Shown here: positions 1 through 35,797 of the stretch, piece by piece
Layout of the letters: every line of letters starts with the position of its first letter
Numbering within the stretch: position 1 is the first letter of the stretch
Assembly (NCBI GenBank): GCA_964434315.1
Contig: CAYSUX010000001.1
Location: 1 to 37,791 of the forward strand
DNA length: 37,791 nucleotides
Source of the DNA: an uncultured archaeon
GTDB taxonomy: Archaea > Thermoplasmatota > Poseidoniia > MGIII > CAYLMJ01
Reading direction: 5' to 3'
Made by a program: the position numbers and the translations under genes
The notes under the pieces: generated by a model
Seen by the model: the letters and a program-made list of their open reading frames with translations, nothing else
Database searches by the model: none
Told to the model about the DNA's origin: nothing

Positions 1-51
1 CCAGTTTTGACCGTTACCTTGCCAGTTTTGACCGTTACCTTGCCAGTTTTG
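1..51. repeat. 21-nt tandem direct repeat, two full copies plus a partial third, at the window edge
   Basis: CCAGTTTTGACCGTTACCTTG occurs perfectly at 1-21 and 22-42, then CCAGTTTTG at 43-51 before diverging. It lies just 3' of carS, whose minus-strand stop is at 61. The full extent is unknown because the window starts here. Confidence 0.9.
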
Positions 52-60
52 GCCTTTATC

Positions 61-645
61 TTACCAGGGTACATCTTTCTTGCCCATCTTGTAGCCGATG
101 ATGTTGACCCCGCGATGCAGAATGGGCGTGACGATGAGAACCACCAGCAATCTCCAGGGTCCATCGTCGGCGTTGATGAACCAATCCCTGAACCAATCGA
201 AGGCTCCGATGATGACCAGAAGCCAGGCTCCGATGAGAAAGTCATACTGGTCGAGACCTGGGAACTTGGCGCCCCGTTCCACGTTCATCCTGCGTTTGAG
301 AAATGAAGCTCCCATGTCCCCCATCAATGAACCCAGGGCCAACAGGAAGATGACCCAGAGCAGGAACGGGAAAGAGCCGAAGAAGTCGGGAAGCTCCAGG
401 TCCAGCGCCAGGCCCAGACCGGCCAGCAAGCCCACCTGGGTCAGTCCCAGAAGGATGCCCGAGGCCGTCCCCCCGATGGTGCCACGCCAGGTCTTACCAT
501 CGCCCAGCAACCGTCTGCCATCCTTGAAGGTACGCCCACCGTCCACCGGTTTGCCGCCTCCGAAGACCGCGGCCGCCGAATTGGGCAGATAGGCGGGCAG
601 GGTCAACCACAATCCTTGCAACAACTGGACCCAGATGGCGGTCAT
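61..645 (-). CDS. carS: CDP-archaeol synthase (CDP-2,3-bis-O-geranylgeranyl-sn-glycerol synthase, DUF46/UPF0290 family)
   Basis: 194 aa polytopic membrane protein. The N-terminal LPAYLPNSAAAVFGGGKPVDGG...DGRRLLGDGKTWRG motif is typical of archaeal CarS. It starts 2 nt after the stop of the upstream gene, which suggests an operon. Confidence 0.8.
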   Translation of the reverse strand: MTAIWVQLLQGLWLTLPAYLPNSAAAVFGGGKPVDGGRTFKDGRRLLGDGKTWRGTIGGTASGILLGLTQVGLLAGLGLALDLELPDFFGSFPFLLWVIFLLALGSLMGDMGASFLKRRMNVERGAKFPGLDQYDFLIGAWLLVIIGAFDWFRDWFINADDGPWRLLVVLIVTPILHRGVNIIGYKMGKKDVPW

Positions 646-16305: not shown

Positions 16306-16460
16306 AGACTTCGATCCCAACCGAAACGAAGCAAAAATCCGCGTTTATACCCAGCTCCATCGGGTCGTTGTTCGCATCCTGTTCTGGTGCCTACCGGCTT
16401 CCTTCGTATTCTCACCATCGATTCCAGCTCTTTAAAACAACGACATTGAATTGCACAAGG

Positions 16461-16470
16461 TTTTTATATT
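16461..16470 (+). promoter_or_regulatory. Putative TATA box for the coiled-coil gene
   Basis: TTTTTATATT is centred about 24 nt upstream of the ATG at 16490, consistent with a leaderless archaeal transcript. Confidence 0.35.
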
Positions 16471-16489
16471 CTTCAATCTAGGAATAATC

Positions 16490-17812
16490 ATGCAAAACTC
16501 GGCCGAGTTGACCAGTTCATCCAGTGAGGACAATACGACCGGGGTCTATTCCGGGGGCCTGGATGAGGGGTCGAAAGAGAGCCTTTATCCCAATATGAGC
16601 AATCTATTGAGCGCCATCGAACTGGAGAATGAGAACGCCCAGTTGAAACAACAGTTGGAATATCTCAAGAAGACCCTGCTCAACAACGAAGATGAGATGC
16701 ACCGGATGGAAGAGGAGCTGGCCGACCTCTCATCCCGATACAAGGACCTGCTCATCGATCATGAGAAGCAGATGTACGAGCTGGAGGCCAAGAACGACGA
16801 TAATCTCTCCAGGTTGCGAGATGAGCTCACAAAGCAGAAGCAGGCTCATCGGGACTTTGAGAACAAAATAGAGATGGACAAGATAGCCTCTGTCGATTAC
16901 AAGCAGAAATACGAGACCCAGGCCAAGCGACTTGAGATGGTAGAGGAACAAAGGGATGCCAACCTGGCCAGCTATGAGGAGGCTGCCAGGGAACGGAACC
17001 TGAGGCAGGAACAGTTGGAGAAGAAAGAGCTCCGGTTGAGCCAGTTGGAAGACAACCTGACGACCAAGAAGGACCAACTGGTCGAGGTCTCGAAGGAGGC
17101 GGTCAAGCTTCAGAAGATGCTGGATGAGGAAGTATACGAGAAGTCGGTGCTTTACGCAAAGGCCAAGGCCTCCGATCTGTTATACAAGAAGTTGCAGCTA
17201 CTGACCCGATTCTACCAGCAGTTGAAGGAGCTCTATGCCAAGACCAGTGACCGGAATATCGACCTGACCACCGAGTTGGAAGGCCTGAGGAAGAATCGAT
17301 CCGACCGGATGGTGGACGATTCCAAGATGACCAAGGATTTTTGCAAGATGAAGAAGAAGGTCATTGATCTCGATGATGAGATGGATCTGAAGATGAACAT
17401 CATCACCTCCCTGGAAGGCGACCTGGAAGACGCGAAAAGCCTTCATTCCAGATACAAGCAGGAGATATTGAAGCTTCAGGATGTCGCGGCCAACGCGGTG
17501 AAGAAACAGGAGCTGCTGCAGGTCAAGATCGAAGCCGAGATAATCTCCCAGGAAGTGCTGAAGTTAGCCATTGAAAAGGAGTTCAAGGTGATAGGCGAGG
17601 TTCTGGGTACCTTTGCCGAACAGAACCTCGAGACCATGAAGAGATGGGACGATTACATCAGACGCAAGGGTCGGAACATCCAGCATATAATGGCCCTGAC
17701 CGAACAGATCGGTCGTATCAAGGATGACAGCAGCAAGACCGAGATAGGCCTCATCGAAGGCCTCCAGGAATACCTCGACCTGGAACCGGACAAGACCCCG
17801 GATTCCGATTAG
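16490..17812 (+). CDS. Long coiled-coil protein (K/E/L/Q-rich), function unknown
   Basis: I start at the ATG at 16490 (MQNSAEL...), because the track start at 16451 is a TTG lying inside the TATA-like region. Heptad-like, charged helical sequence runs throughout, with no TM or signal peptide. Confidence 0.7.
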   Translation: MQNSAELTSSSSEDNTTGVYSGGLDEGSKESLYPNMSNLLSAIELENENAQLKQQLEYLKKTLLNNEDEMHRMEEELADLSSRYKDLLIDHEKQMYELEAKNDDNLSRLRDELTKQKQAHRDFENKIEMDKIASVDYKQKYETQAKRLEMVEEQRDANLASYEEAARERNLRQEQLEKKELRLSQLEDNLTTKKDQLVEVSKEAVKLQKMLDEEVYEKSVLYAKAKASDLLYKKLQLLTRFYQQLKELYAKTSDRNIDLTTELEGLRKNRSDRMVDDSKMTKDFCKMKKKVIDLDDEMDLKMNIITSLEGDLEDAKSLHSRYKQEILKLQDVAANAVKKQELLQVKIEAEIISQEVLKLAIEKEFKVIGEVLGTFAEQNLETMKRWDDYIRRKGRNIQHIMALTEQIGRIKDDSSKTEIGLIEGLQEYLDLEPDKTPDSD

Positions 17813-17988
17813 ATCCTTTGCCCGTTTCCCTGGATAGTATCGGTTGATTTTTATCCCCGACAGCATCCGGAACATCAGGGATGAAGGGAATGATTGCCGG
17901 CTACATCTCATCCCTATCTGTTACAAGGTAGGAGGTCCATTCACCGACGGATCCATCCACATTGAAGTTGATAACGTCTCTTTAATAT

Positions 17989-19020
17989 CTACTTGAGCTC
18001 GTCCAAACGCTTCTTCAACTGGGATTCCATCGTTACAGCTTTCTTAAGTTGTTCAAGGAGGTTCTCGATGGTCTTCTTGTTGGCCGCGATCATGGCGTCG
18101 TAATCCTTCATGATCCCCTTCTTCTTGTCCGGTAATTCACCCTTGACCTTGGCGATCTTCTTCTTGATCTTTTCGATGGCCTTCTTCTTGTCGACCTCGT
18201 TGGATTTCTTGAAAGGCTCCTCGGTATCCAACAGTGCCTGAAGATCCTTTCTGGTCTTGGCCAGATTGTCCTTGTATTTTTTCAGGTTCTTCTCGTTGTA
18301 CCGGTAGGTGGCATAGGGTTCCTTCAATTCAGCTTCCATGAGCTGAACGAATTTTTCCTTCTCATCATTGGCCTTGGCGATCTGCTTGCCCAGTTTCTGA
18401 ATGACCTTGTCCAGCTCGATCTTCTTGTTGGAGAGGGTAAAGGTCTCATTGGCGTTGTGTATCTGGGCCCAAAGCATCTCGTTGGTGTAGGCCGACCGTT
18501 TGTTGACCGACTCGTGGGTGATCTTGTCGATATCCAGTGGAGGCATGTTGTTGAGCGAATCATAGTTCGTTCTGGCCTGCTGATCCAGGAACAGCAAACG
18601 CTCGATGACCTCCTTGTATTTGGAATTCTGGTCGGCTTGATCGTTCTCCAGTCCGGCCAGTTGCTCATTGAATTTTTCGGTCTTTGCGCTCTTTTCAGCC
18701 TCGAGTTTCTCGATTATATCCTTGGATTTCGTGAACTTCTTGTTCCAGTCCTGAACATGGTTTGCTTCCCGGTTGATTTTATTCTCCAACTGCTTCTTCT
18801 GGGCGCCGAAATCCTCGTAGAACTTGTTGATCTCACTGCCAAAACCAGCTTCCAAAGATTCACGTTCTTTTTCAAGCTGTTTGATCTTGTTCTTTGTCTT
18901 TTTATCCAGTTCCTTAAGCTTCTGTGCTTTTTCCGCAAGGTAATCCCGATTCAATTTCTCTAACGTAGAAATTCTGGAATTGTAATCGGCAATAAGGGCG
19001 TCCAATTTTGGGTTTAGCAT
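17989..19020 (-). CDS. Coiled-coil protein (K/E/N-rich), function unknown
   Basis: 343 aa of almost uninterrupted charged helical sequence with no TM. The TATA-like CTTTAAAG lies about 28 nt upstream on the minus strand (19043-19055). GC is lower than in the flanks: the line 18001-18060 has 26 G+C out of 60. Confidence 0.7.
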   Translation of the reverse strand: MLNPKLDALIADYNSRISTLEKLNRDYLAEKAQKLKELDKKTKNKIKQLEKERESLEAGFGSEINKFYEDFGAQKKQLENKINREANHVQDWNKKFTKSKDIIEKLEAEKSAKTEKFNEQLAGLENDQADQNSKYKEVIERLLFLDQQARTNYDSLNNMPPLDIDKITHESVNKRSAYTNEMLWAQIHNANETFTLSNKKIELDKVIQKLGKQIAKANDEKEKFVQLMEAELKEPYATYRYNEKNLKKYKDNLAKTRKDLQALLDTEEPFKKSNEVDKKKAIEKIKKKIAKVKGELPDKKKGIMKDYDAMIAANKKTIENLLEQLKKAVTMESQLKKRLDELK

Positions 19021-20901: not shown

Positions 20902-22365
20902 CTATCGACGAGCCAGATATAAAGCGTAACTGCCTTCAATACGCCCTGCGATCTGTATTGACTCGGGATTCATGGTCTCATCTTCCAGGCTATCCCACAT
21001 GGTATGGTAGTACTTGGAGCCGGAACCATATGAGGTCAGGGTATCGAAGTCCTCCAGGTTGAAGGTTTTATGGTCCGAGGGACCTGCAGATTCGCGGTAG
21101 GTGATAGGCACTTCGTAGAGCTTGGCCAGATCGGGGTTTTCCTTGAAGAACTGGTTGCGTATGGCTTCAATGGGTTTGACATGCTTTTGGTCATTGATCT
21201 CCAGGGGGATCCGGTTGGCGCCATCCTCCAGATCGGCATGGTCCATGTCGAAATTCAGATAGATCTCGAGGTGGTCCTTGAGTTCATCGCGCTGATCCAG
21301 GAAATAGCCGTAGGAGCCAAGCAACGCGATCTCCTCACCGCCCCAGGTGGCCAATCTGATGGTCTTCTTCAGACCCGAGATATTACCCAACTGTCGGGCC
21401 AGTTCGAGCACGGTGACCGTACCCACGCCATTATCGATGGCGCCGGGACCCAGATAATGGGTATCCATGTGAGCGCCCAGCATGATCACATCATCGCCGG
21501 AGCCCTTGTTGTCCCCGGTCACGACAAGCACCGGTCGCTCCTCGATGGTGACCCGTACATCCACGTCGGCCACGATCCTCTGGTCGTCATCCCCGGAGGC
21601 GCTCTCGATCCACTCCATCATCTGATAGCCTGTGGCATTATCCAGCATCAGATGGGGGATGAGGTCGTTGGCATGCTCGGGATAGGCCTCGGGGAAGGGG
21701 ATCATGTGCTCGGTGCCCTCCTCCATGCCGATGGAGGTCTTGGCGATGGGGAGGGTTCGATGCTTGTCGAAGACCAGTGAGGCGGCGGCGTCATGCTCAA
21801 GGGCCGCCAGATAGAGTTCCGAGTAGGAACGCGCTCCGTCGTTCTCCACCAGGACGACATTGCCCGAGGCCTCGTTCTCGATGGCCGAGTAGTTTGCCTC
21901 GTCCCCATTGCCGGCATAGATGACCTCAAGATTGTTGTCGTTCAGGGTCCCTGAATATCCCAGGATGGTGAAGTTGTAATGGTGCTCCAGGTTCATCCGG
22001 TCATTCTCGCCCCAACCCACAGGTTGCCCGAGCAGGTATTCCCGTTCCTGGTAGATGATGTTCAACACCGGTGAGCCCACGGGCTCGTATAGGGTCCAGG
22101 GATACTCGTGGATCGTTATGTCGGTCAATCCCGAGGCATTGAACTGCTCGGCGATATACTCGGCAGCCTGACGTTCGTTATCGGTGCCGGATGCCCGATT
22201 CGGCAGGTCGCCGGCCAGGTATTCCAGATCGTGAAAGGCCCGGTCACAATCGAAATCGATGATGAGATAGCTCTCTTTTTCGTCCTCTTGCAAGGCGTAG
22301 AAGACCCCCATCCCTAGAACCAGGACGATTATTATCACGACGGCCGACAACTGAGTGAGGTCCAT
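20902..22365 (-). CDS. M28-family aminopeptidase with PA domain and N-terminal membrane anchor
   Basis: VIMLGAHMDTHYLGPGAIDNGVGTVTVLELAR and ATWGGEEIALLGS are M28 zinc-ligand blocks. I start at the ATG at 22365 (MDLTQLSAVVIIIVLVLG...). The longer track ORF runs through a 7-nt tandem repeat, which is unlikely to be coding. Confidence 0.8.
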   Translation of the reverse strand: MDLTQLSAVVIIIVLVLGMGVFYALQEDEKESYLIIDFDCDRAFHDLEYLAGDLPNRASGTDNERQAAEYIAEQFNASGLTDITIHEYPWTLYEPVGSPVLNIIYQEREYLLGQPVGWGENDRMNLEHHYNFTILGYSGTLNDNNLEVIYAGNGDEANYSAIENEASGNVVLVENDGARSYSELYLAALEHDAAASLVFDKHRTLPIAKTSIGMEEGTEHMIPFPEAYPEHANDLIPHLMLDNATGYQMMEWIESASGDDDQRIVADVDVRVTIEERPVLVVTGDNKGSGDDVIMLGAHMDTHYLGPGAIDNGVGTVTVLELARQLGNISGLKKTIRLATWGGEEIALLGSYGYFLDQRDELKDHLEIYLNFDMDHADLEDGANRIPLEINDQKHVKPIEAIRNQFFKENPDLAKLYEVPITYRESAGPSDHKTFNLEDFDTLTSYGSGSKYYHTMWDSLEDETMNPESIQIAGRIEGSYALYLARR

Positions 22366-22420
22366 GGTATGGACTAGGTCCCTGCTCGACTTAAGGTTTT
22401 GGAGGAGGGGGTAGTAGATA

Positions 22421-22476
22421 GGAGTAGGGAGTAGGGAGTAGGGAGCAGGGAGTAGGGAATAGGGAACAGGGAGTAG
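22421..22476 (+). repeat. Tandem heptamer repeat (GGAGTAG)x8, a G3N4 array
   Basis: The units are GGAGTAG x3, GGAGCAG, GGAGTAG, GGAATAG, GGAACAG and GGAGTAG. This gives seven GGG runs separated by 4-nt loops, plus a GGGGG at 22407-22411. It lies in the 132-nt spacer between the aminotransferase stop and the M28 start. Confidence 0.95.
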
Positions 22477-22497
22477 GACAGGTTTCAAACCGGGCGA

Positions 22498-33553: not shown

Positions 33554-34639
33554 ATGGAGCAAGCTACAGCGCTCTCCAAATCGAAGCCCTCCCTCGACTC
33601 GATTATCCAACGCATTGGGACAGCCAAGGAGACCCTTGGTGAGAACGTAATGGTCCTGGGTCATCACTATCAGCGTGACGAGGTCTTCCAGTTTGCTGAT
33701 ATGGCCGGCGATAGCTTTAACCTTACCAGGGCCGCAGCGGCCAATCCGAAGGCCCGTTACATCGTCTTTTGCGGGGTTCACTTTATGGCCGAGTCGGCGG
33801 ATATCCTTACCAATGACGACCAGGCCGTAATCCTACCTGACCTCGATGCCGGCTGTACTATGGCCGATATGGCCACCATCGAGGATGTGGAGGAGGCGTG
33901 GGAGATCATCACCGAAGCCCAGCCGGGTCGCAAGATCCTCCCGATCACCTATGTCAACTCCTCGGCTACCGTCAAGGCCATGGTGGGACGGCACGGCGGC
34001 TCGGCCTGCACCTCCTCCAACGCCGGGGCTGTAATCGCCTGGGCCCGTAAGCGAGCCGATCAGCTCGTTTTCATGCCCGACCAGCACCTGGGCCGCAACA
34101 CCTGCTACAAGATGGGCGTGCCCCTGGACCGGATGGTTCTGTGGGACCCAGGGCGGGAGACCGGCGGGCTGACCCCAGAGCAGCTCCGGCGGGCCGAGGT
34201 GATCCTCTGGAAGGGCCACTGCTCGGTGCATCAGCAGTTCACGACCCGGCAGATCGACTACTGGCGTAAAGAGTACCCCGACATCCGGATCGCCGTCCAC
34301 CCCGAATGCTCCTTTGAGGTAACCCAAAAAGCGGACTATTTTTCCTCCACCGAGGGCATCAAGAAGCTCATCCGCGACTCGCCGCCCGGCAGCCGCTGGG
34401 CCATTGGCACCGAGCACCACATGGTCAACCGACTCGCCGCCGCCTACCCCGACCGTTTCATAGTCACTCTGACCCCCTTCGCCTGCCAGTGCTCGACCAT
34501 GTACCGCATCGACCAGGCCAAGCTGCTCAGGGTCATGGAGGGTCTGGTCGAAGGCAAGCTCATCAACCGGATCAAGGTCGATGACGAGACCAAGCGGCTG
34601 GCCAGGGTGGCGCTGGAGCGGATGCTGGAGCTGGGTTGA
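33554..34639 (+). CDS. nadA: Quinolinate synthase
   Basis: VLGHHYQRDEVFQFAD..GDS, FCGVHFMAES, MPDQHLG and AVHPEC are NadA family blocks. Confidence 0.9.
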   Translation: MEQATALSKSKPSLDSIIQRIGTAKETLGENVMVLGHHYQRDEVFQFADMAGDSFNLTRAAAANPKARYIVFCGVHFMAESADILTNDDQAVILPDLDAGCTMADMATIEDVEEAWEIITEAQPGRKILPITYVNSSATVKAMVGRHGGSACTSSNAGAVIAWARKRADQLVFMPDQHLGRNTCYKMGVPLDRMVLWDPGRETGGLTPEQLRRAEVILWKGHCSVHQQFTTRQIDYWRKEYPDIRIAVHPECSFEVTQKADYFSSTEGIKKLIRDSPPGSRWAIGTEHHMVNRLAAAYPDRFIVTLTPFACQCSTMYRIDQAKLLRVMEGLVEGKLINRIKVDDETKRLARVALERMLELG

Positions 34640-34874
34640 GTCTGACTTACTTAAGAGGAAAAGAATCAAATGTTTGTTCTTTAGCCCTCTTCGTTTCGAT
34701 CAGTAGCTTATTACTCCCCATCCCCAACCCTCGACCGGCTTACCACCGAGTCCTCGACCACGGCCACCTTGTCACCCTCGACACGCCGGCCATGGACATG
34801 CCGCTGGAGCTTGGGCAGATAATGTTTCACCTTCACCCGTTTCTCGATGGTGTCCAGCAGGCCGTAGAAGAAGC

Positions 34875-34919
34875 CCACGGCCAGGCTCCGCCTGTCCTCC
34901 TCCGTGCTGCGCACGGCCA
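34875..34919. repeat. 45-nt perfect direct repeat, copy a
   Basis: CCACGGCCAGGCTCCGCCTGTCCTCCTCCGTGCTGCGCACGGCCA is identical to 35330-35374. On the minus strand both copies encode AVRSTEEDRRSLAV. Confidence 0.95.
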
Positions 34920-34933
34920 CGGCCACCTTTGGT

Positions 34934-34976
34934 GGCCTGAGACCGCAGACACGCCCTGGCGGGCGATCTCGCGGCC
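34934..34976 (-). repeat. Hairpin element E1 (43-nt long form)
   Basis: The minus-strand sequence is GGCCGCGAGATCGCCCGCCAGGGCGTGTCTGCGGTCTCAGGCC. Removing it shifts minus frame 1 into minus frame 0 and joins ...SREALL to PKVAVAVRSTEED... It is followed on the minus strand by the perfect 7-bp hairpin GGCCACC-AAA-GGTGGCC (34921-34937). Confidence 0.85.
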
Positions 34977-35087
34977 AGTAGCGCCTCCCGGCTCGGAGCG
35001 CCCGCCTCCAGCCTGAGGTCGCAACTGCCCTCCCGCTCCCCTGGGGCCACGCTCACACGCAGGACGTAAGCCACGGCCACCTCCGGT

Positions 35088-35130
35088 GGCCTGAGACTGC
35101 AGACACGCCCTGGCGGGCGGTCTCGCGGCC
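35088..35130 (-). repeat. Hairpin element E2 (43-nt long form)
   Basis: The minus-strand sequence is GGCCGCGAGACCGCCCGCCAGGGCGTGTCTGCAGTCTCAGGCC, which differs from E1 at 2 positions. Removing it joins ...AADGVKGL to PEVAVAYVLRVSV... in frame. It is followed by the hairpin GGCCACC-GGA-GGTGGCC (35075-35091). Confidence 0.85.
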
Positions 35131-35289
35131 AGGCCCTTGACCCCGTCGGCGGCGAACAAGGTTGTGGTTTTGGAACCCTTCTCGGCCCCGACTTCCGCTT
35201 CGCCTGTGGAGAGCTCACGACCGCCCTCAATCCGCCGCAGGTTCAGGTCCTCCACAACGGTGATCACCAGCGCGGCCAGCCATCGGCCT

Positions 35290-35331
35290 GGCCTGAGACC
35301 ACAGAAGCTCGCTACGCTCGTTCTTGCGGCC
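35290..35331 (-). repeat. Hairpin element E4 (42-nt long form with a different core)
   Basis: The minus-strand sequence is GGCCGCAAGAACGAGCGTAGCGAGCTTCTGTGGTCTCAGGCC. The ends match E1/E2 (GGCCGC.AGA...TCTG.GGTCTCAGGCC) but the 16-17 nt core is unrelated. At 42 nt it keeps the frame whether present or removed. It abuts 45-nt repeat copy b. Confidence 0.75.
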
Positions 35332-35374
35332 ACGGCCAGGCTCCGCCTGTCCTCCTCCGTGCTGCGCACGGCCA
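35330..35374. repeat. 45-nt perfect direct repeat, copy b
   Basis: Identical to 34875-34919. The two copies are 455 nt apart. Confidence 0.95.
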
Positions 35375-35524
35375 ACACCACCCGGGGCTCCAACGGCAGG
35401 CCTTTCAGTGTCTCTGCGGTGTGAGTCAGATTGGTCCAGCGTTCTTGCCATACCTCCGGGGTGAGGACGGCGCCCTTCAACAGGGGGCAGACCATCCATC
35501 GGCCAGCCTTGGGCGTGACCTCCC

Positions 35525-35558
35525 CCGCAGACACGCCCTGGCGGGCGGTCTCGCGGCC
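35525..35558 (-). repeat. Hairpin element E3 (34-nt short form)
   Basis: The minus-strand sequence is GGCCGCGAGACCGCCCGCCAGGGCGTGTCTGCGG, the same core as E2 but lacking the distal GTCTCAGGCC arm. The coding-like frame changes across it. A 35-nt deletion, not 34, would be needed to join the two frames. Confidence 0.8.
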
Positions 35559-35640
35559 ACCTCCACGGGCTCGGGGCGCAGCTCCTCGCGCTGGCGGGTG
35601 GCGTAATGGTAAAAGCTCACCTCCAGGCCGATCTGGCGCC

Positions 35641-35674
35641 GGCCGCGAGAATCTTTCGAGCAAAGATTCTGCGG
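35641..35674 (+). repeat. Hairpin element E5 (34-nt short form, inverted orientation, different core)
   Basis: The plus-strand sequence is GGCCGCGAGAATCTTTCGAGCAAAGATTCTGCGG. It has the same 10-nt and 7-nt ends and the same length as E3. The core ATCTTT-CGAGC-AAAGAT is a different perfect hairpin. Confidence 0.8.
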
Positions 35675-35797
35675 AAGAGGACAGTGAAGCTGGCCGTGGC
35701 CGCACTCCCCCTTGGGCCGCAGGATAAAGGCCAGGGTGGCCGAGGCCCCCGGCTCTAGCAGGGCCAGGCTCTCGGTGGTGTCGGCGGCCTCGAAATA

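What the first reader, a model, noticed from the sequence alone, without database searches (positions are those of the whole stretch)
34711..35795. Gene remnant interrupted by a family of 34-43 nt hairpin elements with conserved ends and variable cores; exact excision of three copies restores one ORF
Five elements share the ends GGCCGCGAGA...TCTGCGG. E1, E2, E3 and E4 lie on the minus strand and E5 is inverted. E1/E2/E3 have the core CGCCC-GCCA-GGGCG, and E5 has the unrelated perfect hairpin ATCTTT-CGAGC-AAAGAT. The basal stem CCGC/GCGG plus AGA/TCT is kept. E4 has a third, only weakly self-pairing core. The long forms (E1, E2, E4) add a distal arm GTCTCAGGCC that can pair with the 5' GGCC(GC)GAGAC. 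The coding-like minus-strand frame changes exactly at the elements. Deleting the 43 nt of E2 joins ...GVKGL to PEVAVAYVLRVSVAPGE..., and deleting the 43 nt of E1 joins ...SREALL to PKVAVAVRSTEED...stop. E4 (42 nt) is frame-neutral. E3 is off by one (35 nt needed), and E5 is read through without a stop. Insertions sit between a T and an A with no target duplication. This fits a palindromic miniature mobile element, such as an IS200/IS605-derived PATE or a REP-like element, colonising a dead gene. The conserved ends, variable cores and frame restoration also raise the possibility of RNA-level excision.
Basis: partly seen in the sequence, partly recalled or inferred. Interest (0 to 1): 0.7.

Follow-up and report, generated by a model that had tools for sequence, protein, structure and literature searches.

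The report
Small hairpin inserts in a dead archaeal gene
A broken gene fragment in a strain-specific island of an uncultured marine archaeon carries five copies (a sixth lies just past the window) of a 42-43-base hairpin-forming repeat that look like tiny insertions; this is an undescribed but fairly ordinary kind of selfish or recombination-prone DNA, with no sign that it is removed from RNA.

Summary
Five hairpin units are at the stated places, and a sixth lies 410 nt beyond the window on an overlapping contig. The minus-strand coding periodicity changes frame at E3, E2 and E1, and stays in frame across E4 and E5.

I redefine the unit as GCCGCRAGA-[16-17 nt core]-TCTGYRG-[3-4 nt]-AGGNCA, 42-43 nt. 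All five in-window copies fit, including the 'short' E3 and the inverted E5. None of 214 other fetched loci does.

The host is an archaeon. The region is a roughly 5.5 kb insertion between convergent nadA and a conserved gene that are only tens of nt apart in relatives. It is a 5'-truncated, internally duplicated fragment of a surface-protein-like gene, next to a 19-35% GC cassette.

Internal paralogous repeats supply empty sites for E1/E2 (CTG|CCG) and, less surely, E4 (GTG|GGC). There is no target duplication.

Best reading: a new family of miniature palindromic insertion or recombination-prone repeats in a pseudogene. REP tags, attC boxes, BHB intron geometry, Rfam families and any transposase are absent. 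Genome-wide copy number could not be measured, so mobility versus local spread is unresolved. Interest is modest.

The parts
34933..34975 (-). E1, 43-nt hairpin unit GCCGCGAGA-TCGCCCGCCAGGGCGTG-TCTGCGG-TCTC-AGGCCA; shifts the frame by +1
35087..35129 (-). E2, 43-nt unit; together with 18 nt of right flank it is 94% identical to E1; shifts the frame by +1; absent from paralog U and from unit I
35289..35330 (-). E4, 42-nt unit with the same ends and tail but an unrelated, non-pairing 16-nt core (direct repeat CGAGC..CGAGC); frame-neutral
35516..35557 (-). E3, 42-nt unit; core identical to E2; tail GGG-AGGTCA; the observed frame change (0->2) needs 41 or 44 nt, so there is an extra 1-nt lesion
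35642..35683 (+). E5, inverted 42-nt unit with an unrelated, perfectly paired core ATCTTT-CGAGC-AAAGAT and tail AAG-AGGACA; frame-neutral
34921..34937 (-). Second hairpin GGCCACC-NNN-GGTGGCC directly after E1 (it overlaps the last 5 nt of E1)
35075..35091 (-). Second hairpin GGCCACC-NNN-GGTGGCC directly after E2
35388..35405 (-). Uninterrupted paralogous site AAAGGCCTG|CCGTTGGAG (KGL|PLE...VVLAVRSTEED): an empty-site counterpart of the E2 left flank and the E1 right flank
34871..34880 (-). Candidate empty site for E4: CCGTG|GGCTT (RSLAV|GFFY), at the end of the 53-nt duplicated block
   Evidence: alignment ambiguous
34711..35795 (-). 5'-truncated, internally duplicated gene fragment 'W' with no start codon. 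Coding frames on the minus strand are 0 (35795-35558), 2 (35515-35131), 0 (35086-34976) and 1 (34932-34711, stop). Residues AGRWMVCPLLKGAVLTPEVWQERWTNLT weakly match prealbumin-like (SpaA/SdrD_B) surface-protein repeats
35798..37390 (-). AT-rich cassette (19-35% GC): a 178/186-aa membrane ORF plus the C-terminal two-thirds of the 461/527-aa ORF X. It abuts the fragment W
33554..34639 (+). nadA, the conserved gene that bounds the inserted island on one side

Best explanation
The units are a small, previously undescribed family of 42-43-nt palindromic insertion elements. Each has a bulged GC-rich hairpin, with foot CCGC-R-AGA...TCT-GYGG, and a short 3' tail AGGNCA. The foot, the bulge and the tail are conserved. 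The distal stem and loop (the 'core') are free to vary.

Copies sit in a non-functional, 5'-truncated and internally duplicated gene fragment. That fragment lies in a strain-specific island of roughly 5.5 kb or more in a marine archaeon. Copies were added without target duplication, directly 3' of a G (YTG in five of six). Because they are 42 or 43 nt long, some keep the old reading frame and some break it.

Shown:
- the anatomy of the units;
- the frame shifts;
- the pseudogene status of the host sequence;
- the island context;
- absence of the units at paralogous junctions.

Inferred:
- that they were inserted by a structure-specific enzyme acting on a single-strand hairpin (HUH/RAYT-like or similar) encoded elsewhere in the genome;
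- that they later spread locally by short-tract gene conversion and promoted the block rearrangements seen at their borders.

They are probably inert in the RNA and the protein.
For: - One pattern, GCCGCRAGA-N16-17-TCTGYRG-N3-4-AGGNCA, hits all five in-window copies. It hits none of 214 other loci, which include 146 chance matches to the two ends alone.
- E5 carries the same ends and tail in inverted orientation, in a different coding context.
- Two unrelated cores (the E1 type and E5) both extend the hairpin.
- Lengths predict the observed frame behaviour for E1, E2 (43 nt, +1) and for E4, E5 (42 nt, 0).
- E2 and E3 are 33/33 identical, and E1 and E2 are 94% identical over 63 nt, while their flanks are unrelated or far more diverged.
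- The upstream paralog U (78% identical flanks) lacks E2 and keeps a positional homolog of E1.
- Unit I has the uninterrupted junction AAAGGCCTG|CCG. This matches the E2 flanks 11/12 after a 43-nt excision, and it continues into the block that follows E1.
- The fragment has no homolog in syntenic relatives, where nadA and the next gene are only tens of nt apart.
Against: - All six copies lie within 3.5 kb. There are none in the other 34.7 kb of the contig or in about 150 kb of related genomes. Genome-wide dispersal, which is the hallmark of a mobile repeat, is therefore not shown.
- No transposase or recombinase was found among the ORFs tested.
- The E1 and E2 sites are themselves paralogous, so one insertion followed by duplication would suffice for both.
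- The empty-site matches are short: 3 nt beyond the junction for E4, with an alternative alignment.
- E3 needs an extra 1-nt change.
- In E4 the unit's 3' end plus its flank reads SFCGLRPGRW. This resembles the SFCGLMPGTY motif of prealbumin-like repeats, so part of the unit may be native coding sequence. The match is not significant on its own.
- Wholesale core replacement with unchanged ends is not explained.
Confidence: 0.5

Rival explanations
1. The hairpins are not mobile. They arose and spread in place. A quasi-palindrome in a repetitive gene was perfected by replication template switching. It was then copied between paralogous repeats by short-tract gene conversion or unequal recombination, with the conserved ends acting as homology anchors. 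The hairpins also caused the duplications and deletions seen at their borders.
For: - Copies are confined to one 3.5 kb locus.
- Duplicated blocks end at or next to units: the 53-nt block ends at E4 and starts after E1 plus the second hairpin; U looks like unit II with deletions on both sides of the unit.
- E1/E2 share 18 nt beyond the unit. E3/E6 share 11 nt of left flank.
- No transposase was seen.
- The E1/E2 sites are paralogous.
Against: - E5 is a complete unit in inverted orientation, with the same tail, at a site with no similarity to the others.
- Three unrelated cores between identical ends are hard to get by conversion alone.
- The 3' half of the E1 core shows no similarity to the E4 core, as a template-switch origin from an E4-like ancestor would predict (own comparison of the sequences).
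Confidence: 0.25
2. The units are structure-specific recombination sites (attC-like in logic). They are used to shuffle the AT-rich cassettes and GC-rich units of a polymorphic island.
For: - The conserved foot, extrahelical purine and variable centre resemble the logic of folded attC sites.
- The island is modular: an AT-rich cassette, a GC-rich tail and a conserved 5' region.
- Two structural variants exist.
- Block borders coincide with units.
Against: - There are no R''/R' boxes (RYYYAAC...GTTRRRY) anywhere in the island.
- The units are 42 nt, against 57 nt or more for attC.
- Spacing of 116-230 nt leaves no cassette ORFs between units.
- The AT-rich cassette borders are not at units.
- No recombinase gene is present.
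Confidence: 0.08
3. The 'units' are native coding sequence of tandem prealbumin-like domain repeats (V-A-A-R...C-G-L-R-P). E4 is the intact version. E1/E2 simply carry a 1-nt frameshift in a diverged core.
For: - All minus-strand copies are entered in the same codon phase (xxG GCC GCR AGA). E1, E2 and E4 are left in the same phase (TGY GGT CTC AGG CCA = CGLRP).
- A 16-nt core is in frame and a 17-nt core is +1.
- SFCGLRPGRW resembles SFCGLMPGTY of P0004, and there is a gapless 30-residue HMM alignment.
Against: - That HMM match scores 1.1-3.6 bits, no better than chance matches elsewhere in the window.
- E5 is the same unit on the opposite strand.
- The DNA after E4 (GGCCGATGG) is homologous to the G-R-W of the true motif after E3. 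This places E4 upstream of the motif, not in it.
- Near-identity of E1/E2/E3 contrasts with diverged flanks.
- Two independent palindromic cores are not expected from coding constraint.
Confidence: 0.08
4. The units are removed or skipped during expression, by an archaeal BHB-type intron, by translational bypass or by +1 frameshifting, so that the fragment is expressed.
For: - The host is an archaeon.
- Skipping E1 and E2 restores the frame.
- A GCC...GCC pair 52 nt apart could serve as take-off and landing codons in E1 and E2.
Against: - No bulge-helix-bulge geometry is shared by the copies in either orientation. The one shared candidate removes 20 nt, the wrong phase for E1/E2.
- GCC is very common here, and no stop or rare codon follows the take-off.
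- E3 is off by one.
- The fragment has no start codon and begins at a cassette junction.
- There is no Rfam match.
Confidence: 0.03

Closest known systems
REP / BIME elements (repetitive extragenic palindromes, RAYT-associated)
   Same: Both are 20-40 nt GC-rich imperfect palindromes with a bulged stem. Both occur in either orientation, sometimes paired with a second hairpin, and cluster downstream of or between convergent genes. Intragenic copies are known (PMC3733652).
   Different: No GTAG or CGTC tag at either end. No RAYT gene seen. High copy number not shown. Archaeal host. A conserved 3' tail. Unrelated cores between identical ends.
IS200/IS605-derived miniature elements (PATEs) and other single-strand HUH-transposed elements
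   Same: Insertion without target duplication, directly 3' of a short motif (here YTG). Hairpin as the likely recognition feature. Asymmetric ends.
   Different: Only one hairpin in 42-43 nt, instead of subterminal hairpins at both ends of an element of hundreds of nt (own knowledge). No TnpA/TnpB gene in 38.4 kb.
Rickettsia palindromic elements, cyanobacterial small dispersed repeats and enterobacterial RU elements inside ORFs
   Same: Short palindromic repeats found inside protein-coding sequence. Some are in frame and would be translated (PMC2759123; RPE and SDR from own knowledge).
   Different: Those are either much longer (100-170 nt) or shorter (21-27 nt). They sit in live genes, dispersed genome-wide. 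Here the host is a pseudogene fragment and the copies are local.
Integron attC sites
   Same: A folded hairpin with conserved ends, an extrahelical base and a variable centre, in a modular, compositionally foreign island.
   Different: No R/L box consensus. Too short. No cassettes between copies. No integrase.
Archaeal bulge-helix-bulge introns; T4 gene 60 and mitochondrial 'byp' bypass elements
   Same: Short inserts that interrupt a reading frame, and whose omission rejoins it.
   Different: No BHB motif. No stop or hungry codon at a take-off site. The interrupted sequence is a start-less fragment.

Membership tests
REP (GTAG/CGTC-tagged palindromic repeats) | 20-40 bp imperfect palindrome able to form a stable stem-loop | tested here: met
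   Four of the five in-window units, and E6 in its longer 76-nt context, fold as bulged hairpins; z -1.6 to -3.3. E4 does not.
REP (GTAG/CGTC-tagged palindromic repeats) | Unpaired GTAG or CGTC tag at one end (PMC3733652) | tested here: not met
   No GTAG/CTAC/CGTC/GACG at either foot of any copy. The only GTAG lies inside the E4 core.
REP (GTAG/CGTC-tagged palindromic repeats) | High copy number dispersed over the genome | tested here: inconclusive
   0 copies in the other 34.7 kb of the contig and in about 150 kb of relatives. The rest of the genome could not be reached.
REP (GTAG/CGTC-tagged palindromic repeats) | Associated RAYT (Y1 HUH) transposase | tested here: inconclusive
   No Y1_Tnp or other transposase hit among the ORFs tested in 38.4 kb. 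The enzyme could be encoded elsewhere.
IS200/IS605-derived PATE / MITE | Subterminal hairpins at both ends, derived from a TnpA/TnpB element | tested here: not met
   Single hairpin plus a 9-10 nt tail. No similarity to any transposase-bearing element in the window. No hit in plasmid or phage records.
IS200/IS605-derived PATE / MITE | Insertion 3' of a fixed short target, without target-site duplication | tested here: inconclusive
   No duplication. The 5' flank is CTG, CTG, GTG, GTG, GTG and CCG. The junctions are supported only by short internal paralog matches.
Integron attC | R''(RYYYAAC)...R'(GTTRRRY) boxes 35-130 nt apart, and a neighbouring IntI | tested here: not met
   No such pair on either strand of L215 or L220. 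No integrase domain.
Archaeal BHB intron | Two 3-nt bulges separated by a 4-bp helix, placed so that excision rejoins the frame | tested here: not met
   Both geometries were scanned. No motif is shared by the copies with the required length class.
Programmed translational bypass (gene 60 / byp) | Matched take-off and landing codons, with a stop or undecodable codon after the take-off | tested here: inconclusive
   A GCC/GCC pair exists in E1 and E2, but GCC is ubiquitous here. The next codon is GCG, not a stop. The fragment lacks a start codon.
Any Rfam RNA family / tRNA | Covariance-model match | tested here: not met
   No gathering-threshold hit in the window. Only a chance-level Histone3 hit (E 0.22) in the AT-rich part. 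No tRNA.
CRISPR array | Regularly spaced identical repeats with spacers of 25-50 nt | tested here: not met
   Spacings are 116-428 nt and irregular. One copy is inverted.

The most novel reading that the evidence does not exclude
The 42-43-nt units are structure-specific recombination or transposition sites of an archaeal system not yet described. A conserved hairpin foot with an extrahelical purine and an AGGNCA tail would be the recognition determinants, and the core would be free to vary. This activity would drive the shuffling of GC-rich gene blocks and AT-rich cassettes in a polymorphic island. Such a system would be analogous in logic to attC/integrase or REP/RAYT, but unrelated in sequence.
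Probability: 0.1. Interest if true: 0.7.

Novelty: new member of a known kind. Interest (0 to 1): 0.35.

Why it matters
If these units turn out to be dispersed and mobile, they would be one of the smallest insertion elements described in archaea. They would also give a handle on an unknown hairpin-recognising enzyme in an abundant, uncultured marine lineage. Identical ends around unrelated cores would show which parts of the hairpin are recognised.

If they are only local, they are a clean natural example of palindromes seeding duplications, deletions and frame breaks while a gene fragment decays inside a hypervariable island.

Either way they warn annotators. The deposited 322-aa ORF (P0001) reads straight through three frame breaks and is not a real protein.

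Tried and rejected
1. Ends-only pattern in viral contigs and genome contigs. It gave 28 and 118 single-match loci. These have no AGGNCA tail and hairpin energies that look like chance matches.

2. Specific long-form pattern in metagenome contigs. It gave 0 hits, not even the source contig, so that collection does not hold this population. Specific patterns in viral contigs also gave 0.

3. Second metagenome scan, with NadA. It returned only relatives at about 50% identity, which were not useful.

4. Protein search with the 'restored' ORF. It found only the deposited read-through ORF.

5. Six-frame peptides of the unit as a query. Nothing passed the E-value ceiling, and only 54 word-sharing candidates were collected.

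6. An eyeballed similarity between ORF X and the fragment. It is not supported.

7. A profile of prealbumin-like repeats. It does not bridge the E3 junction. Its match to the E4 peptide is at chance level.

8. tblastn of W, U and X against syntenic relatives and the rest of the window: nothing.

9. blastn of the region against plasmid and phage records: nothing.

10. Pfam, NCBIfam, PHROGs and PADLOC on the fragment pieces and the island ORFs. There were no family hits, apart from weak tape-measure-like matches for X.

11. BHB intron geometry, attC boxes, REP tags, Rfam and tRNA: all negative.

12. Population variants from other samples. They are 99.8-100% identical, with 1-2 SNPs each and none in a unit, so they give no covariation or presence/absence information.
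Full report
**What is in the sequence**

The exact ends GGCCGCGAGA...TCTGCGG occur three times, against 0.00 expected from shuffles. E2 and E4 differ by one or two bases at the ends. No further copy exists in the other 34.7 kb of the window, even when 2+1 mismatches are allowed.

An identical JGI contig, L001, overlaps the window end and runs 621 nt further. It carries a sixth copy, E6, at window-equivalent 38201-38243.

Aligning all six shows that the 'short' forms E3 and E5 also have the 3' tail. The unit is GCCGCRAGA-[16-17 nt core]-TCTGYRG-[3-4 nt]-AGGNCA, 42-43 nt long. This pattern finds exactly the five in-window copies.

E1/E2/E3/E6 share one core. E5 has an unrelated core that pairs perfectly. 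E4 has a third core that is a direct repeat, not an inverted one. As RNA or DNA, four of the five in-window units, and E6 in its 76-nt context, fold into a bulged hairpin (z -1.6 to -3.3). E4 does not.

E1 and E2 share 63 nt at 94% identity. The shared stretch includes a second perfect hairpin, GGCCACC-NNN-GGTGGCC, that occurs nowhere else in the window.

**Frames**

Genes of this window have GC of about 0.63/0.43/0.75 at codon positions 1/2/3. The same signature on the minus strand of 34711-35795 switches phase 0->2 near E3, 2->0 at E2 and 0->1 at E1. It does not change at E4 or E5.

This matches the unit lengths: 43 nt for E1 and E2, 42 nt for E4 and E5. E3 is 42 nt but would need to be 41 or 44, so one more single-base lesion is present there. 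However, any deletion of 1 mod 3 would restore the frame equally well.

**Host and context**

The contig is archaeal. It encodes CDP-archaeol synthase, aIF2-alpha, PAC2, NFACT, an MJ1316 domain and L44e. A marine group II-like lineage is my inference only.

The closest NadA relatives (72-74% identity) lie on contigs with the same gene order, from MutL to nadA. In those contigs nadA is followed, after only tens of bases, by a convergent 328-348-aa helical gene.

In the present population the ortholog of that gene (84% identity) is found on contig L220. There it is separated from nadA by the following, in order:
- a first AT-rich cassette with a 182-aa membrane ORF;
- a short GC-rich tail;
- a conserved 5' region;
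- ORF X;
- a second AT-rich cassette, 19-35% GC;
- the fragment studied here.

The fragment therefore lies in an insertion of about 5.5 kb. That insertion has no counterpart in relatives, in plasmid or phage records, or in 5.8 billion proteins apart from the deposited read-through ORF.

Two structural variants exist upstream of X: L215 with a paralogous copy 'U', and L216/L220. The NCBI contig ends exactly where the two diverge.

**What the interrupted sequence is**

The fragment has no start codon and begins at the cassette junction. An exhaustive profile search with its longest uninterrupted piece found only weak matches (E 3.6e-10 to 3e-4). The matches are to repeats of large surface proteins, and those repeats are prealbumin-like SpaA/SdrD_B/CarboxypepD_reg domains. 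The matching part is AGRWMVCPLLKGAVLTPEVWQERWTNLT.

The fragment is internally duplicated:
- A 53-nt block (VAVRSTEEDRRSLAV) occurs twice at 94% identity.
- The block FAADGVKGL recurs at the 5' end of the fragment, in diverged form (FEAADTTESL), and again in U.

It is best read as a decaying remnant of a repetitive surface-protein gene.

**Are the units insertions?**

Evidence for:
- The same 42-43-nt unit, tail included, sits in unrelated contexts, once inverted.
- E2/E3 (33/33) and E1/E2 (94% over 63 nt) are far more alike than their flanks.
- U aligns with the fragment at 78-92% on both sides of E2 but lacks it. U retains a positional homolog of E1.
- An uninterrupted paralogous stretch...AAAGGCCTG|CCGTTGGAG...VVLAVRSTEED, matches the E2 flanks 11/12 across the junction once 43 nt are removed. 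It then continues into the block that follows E1.
- For E4, the second copy of the 53-nt block continues GTG|GGC, exactly as E4's flanks would after excision of 42 nt.

They show no target duplication. The base 5' of the unit is always G (YTG in five of six).

Evidence against, or limits:
- The E1 and E2 sites are paralogous to each other, so one insertion plus duplication would account for both.
- The post-junction matches are short.
- MAFFT offers an alternative alignment in which the 3' end of E4 (TTCTGTGGTCT) pairs with native TTCTACGGCCT.
- E4 plus its flank reads SFCGLRPGRW, which resembles the domain motif SFCGLMPGTY. That match is not significant. It also conflicts with the DNA homology between the flank of E4 and the true G-R-W motif downstream of E3.
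- Duplicated blocks end at the units. This fits either recombination at or near the hairpins or their local copying.

**Known families tested**
- REP: the size and the fold fit, but the defining GTAG/CGTC tag (PMC3733652) is absent.
- PATE/IS200-IS605: there is one hairpin rather than two, and no TnpA/TnpB.
- attC: no R boxes and no integrase.
- Archaeal BHB introns: neither bulge geometry gives a motif shared by the copies with the required lengths. The one shared candidate removes 20 nt, the wrong phase for E1/E2.
- Translational bypass: a GCC/GCC pair 52 nt apart exists in E1/E2, but GCC is ubiquitous here and no stop follows the take-off.
- Rfam and tRNA: nothing.
- No ORF tested in the 38.4 kb has a transposase or recombinase domain.

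**Verdict**

The most likely account (about 0.5) is a new small family of palindromic insertion elements sitting in a pseudogene fragment of a variable archaeal island. Their lengths, 42 or 43 nt, explain which copies break the frame.

A purely local origin, by template switching and gene conversion, is the main rival (about 0.25). It cannot be separated from the first account without the rest of the genome, and the capped collection scans did not reach that. RNA-level or translational removal is unlikely (about 0.03).

The find is a new member of the broad class of short palindromic repeats. It is of modest interest unless a genome-wide scan shows dispersal or an associated enzyme.

Noticed in passing
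window 35798-37390: A sharp drop to 19-35% GC inside a contig of about 59% GC. ORF X (36337-37722; 527 aa on L001) starts GC-rich and turns AT-rich about 110 codons into the 461-aa reading (about 170 in the 527-aa form). It is followed by an AT-rich 178/186-aa membrane ORF. The layout resembles a swapped C-terminal cassette plus partner gene, as in polymorphic toxin-like systems. The helical part of X weakly matches tape-measure-type PHROGs.
   Followed up: partly
window 34640-37791 plus L220 1-4081: Everything between nadA and the ortholog of the relatives' 328-aa helical gene is an insertion of about 5.5 kb that is absent from syntenic relatives. L220 shows a second AT-rich cassette (182-aa membrane ORF), followed by a short paralog of the fragment's C-terminus (YLPRLQRHIHGQRMEGDKMEVEDSVVSQSRVGG).
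   Followed up: partly
window 37791/37792 (contig end); L215 1-618 vs L216 1-521: There are two structural variants upstream of ORF X in different samples. One has a paralogous GC-rich copy 'U' with unit E6. The other has an AT-rich cassette. The deposited contig ends exactly at the divergence point, which suggests a repeat or strain branch in the assembly.
   Followed up: partly
window 35790-35815: The last codons of the AT-rich membrane ORF and the start of the fragment (TCA AAA TGA TAT TTC GAG GCC GCC GAC) parallel the internal block TCC AAA ACC ACA ACC TTG TTC GCC GCC GAC (GSKTTTLFAAD). The cassette junction therefore seems to lie inside a repeat unit of the old gene.
   Followed up: no
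window 34833-35813 (-): The deposited 322/326-aa ORF (P0001) reads through E4, E2 and E1 in one frame. After E2 it is in the wrong frame, so it is an annotation artefact of GC-rich DNA.
   Followed up: yes
window 1-67: A 21-nt tandem repeat, CCAGTTTTGACCGTTACCTTG, x3.2 at the very start of the contig, just downstream of the CDP-archaeol synthase gene.
   Followed up: no
window 22421-22477: A heptamer tandem repeat, GGAGTAG, x8 inside the 5' end of the M28 peptidase ORF (20902-22488, minus strand). A 7-nt period is not a multiple of 3.
   Followed up: no
window 16451-19020: A lower-GC stretch (46-50%) with two ORFs (453 aa and 343 aa) that have no Pfam match. It may be another variable segment.
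   Followed up: no
L214 4177-5223: In one sample, the relatives' conserved 348-aa helical gene carries an in-frame stop (GKD*PVRK) that splits it into 101-aa and 245-aa calls.
   Followed up: no
viral loci L004, L014, L015, L027: Four related viral contigs share GGGCCGCGAGATCC(G/A)TCACGGGGATT(T/C)TTCTGCGGTCTGTGG. This chance-level match to the unit's ends also has a small internal hairpin and a GGTCT after the foot. It lacks the AGGNCA tail.
   Followed up: no
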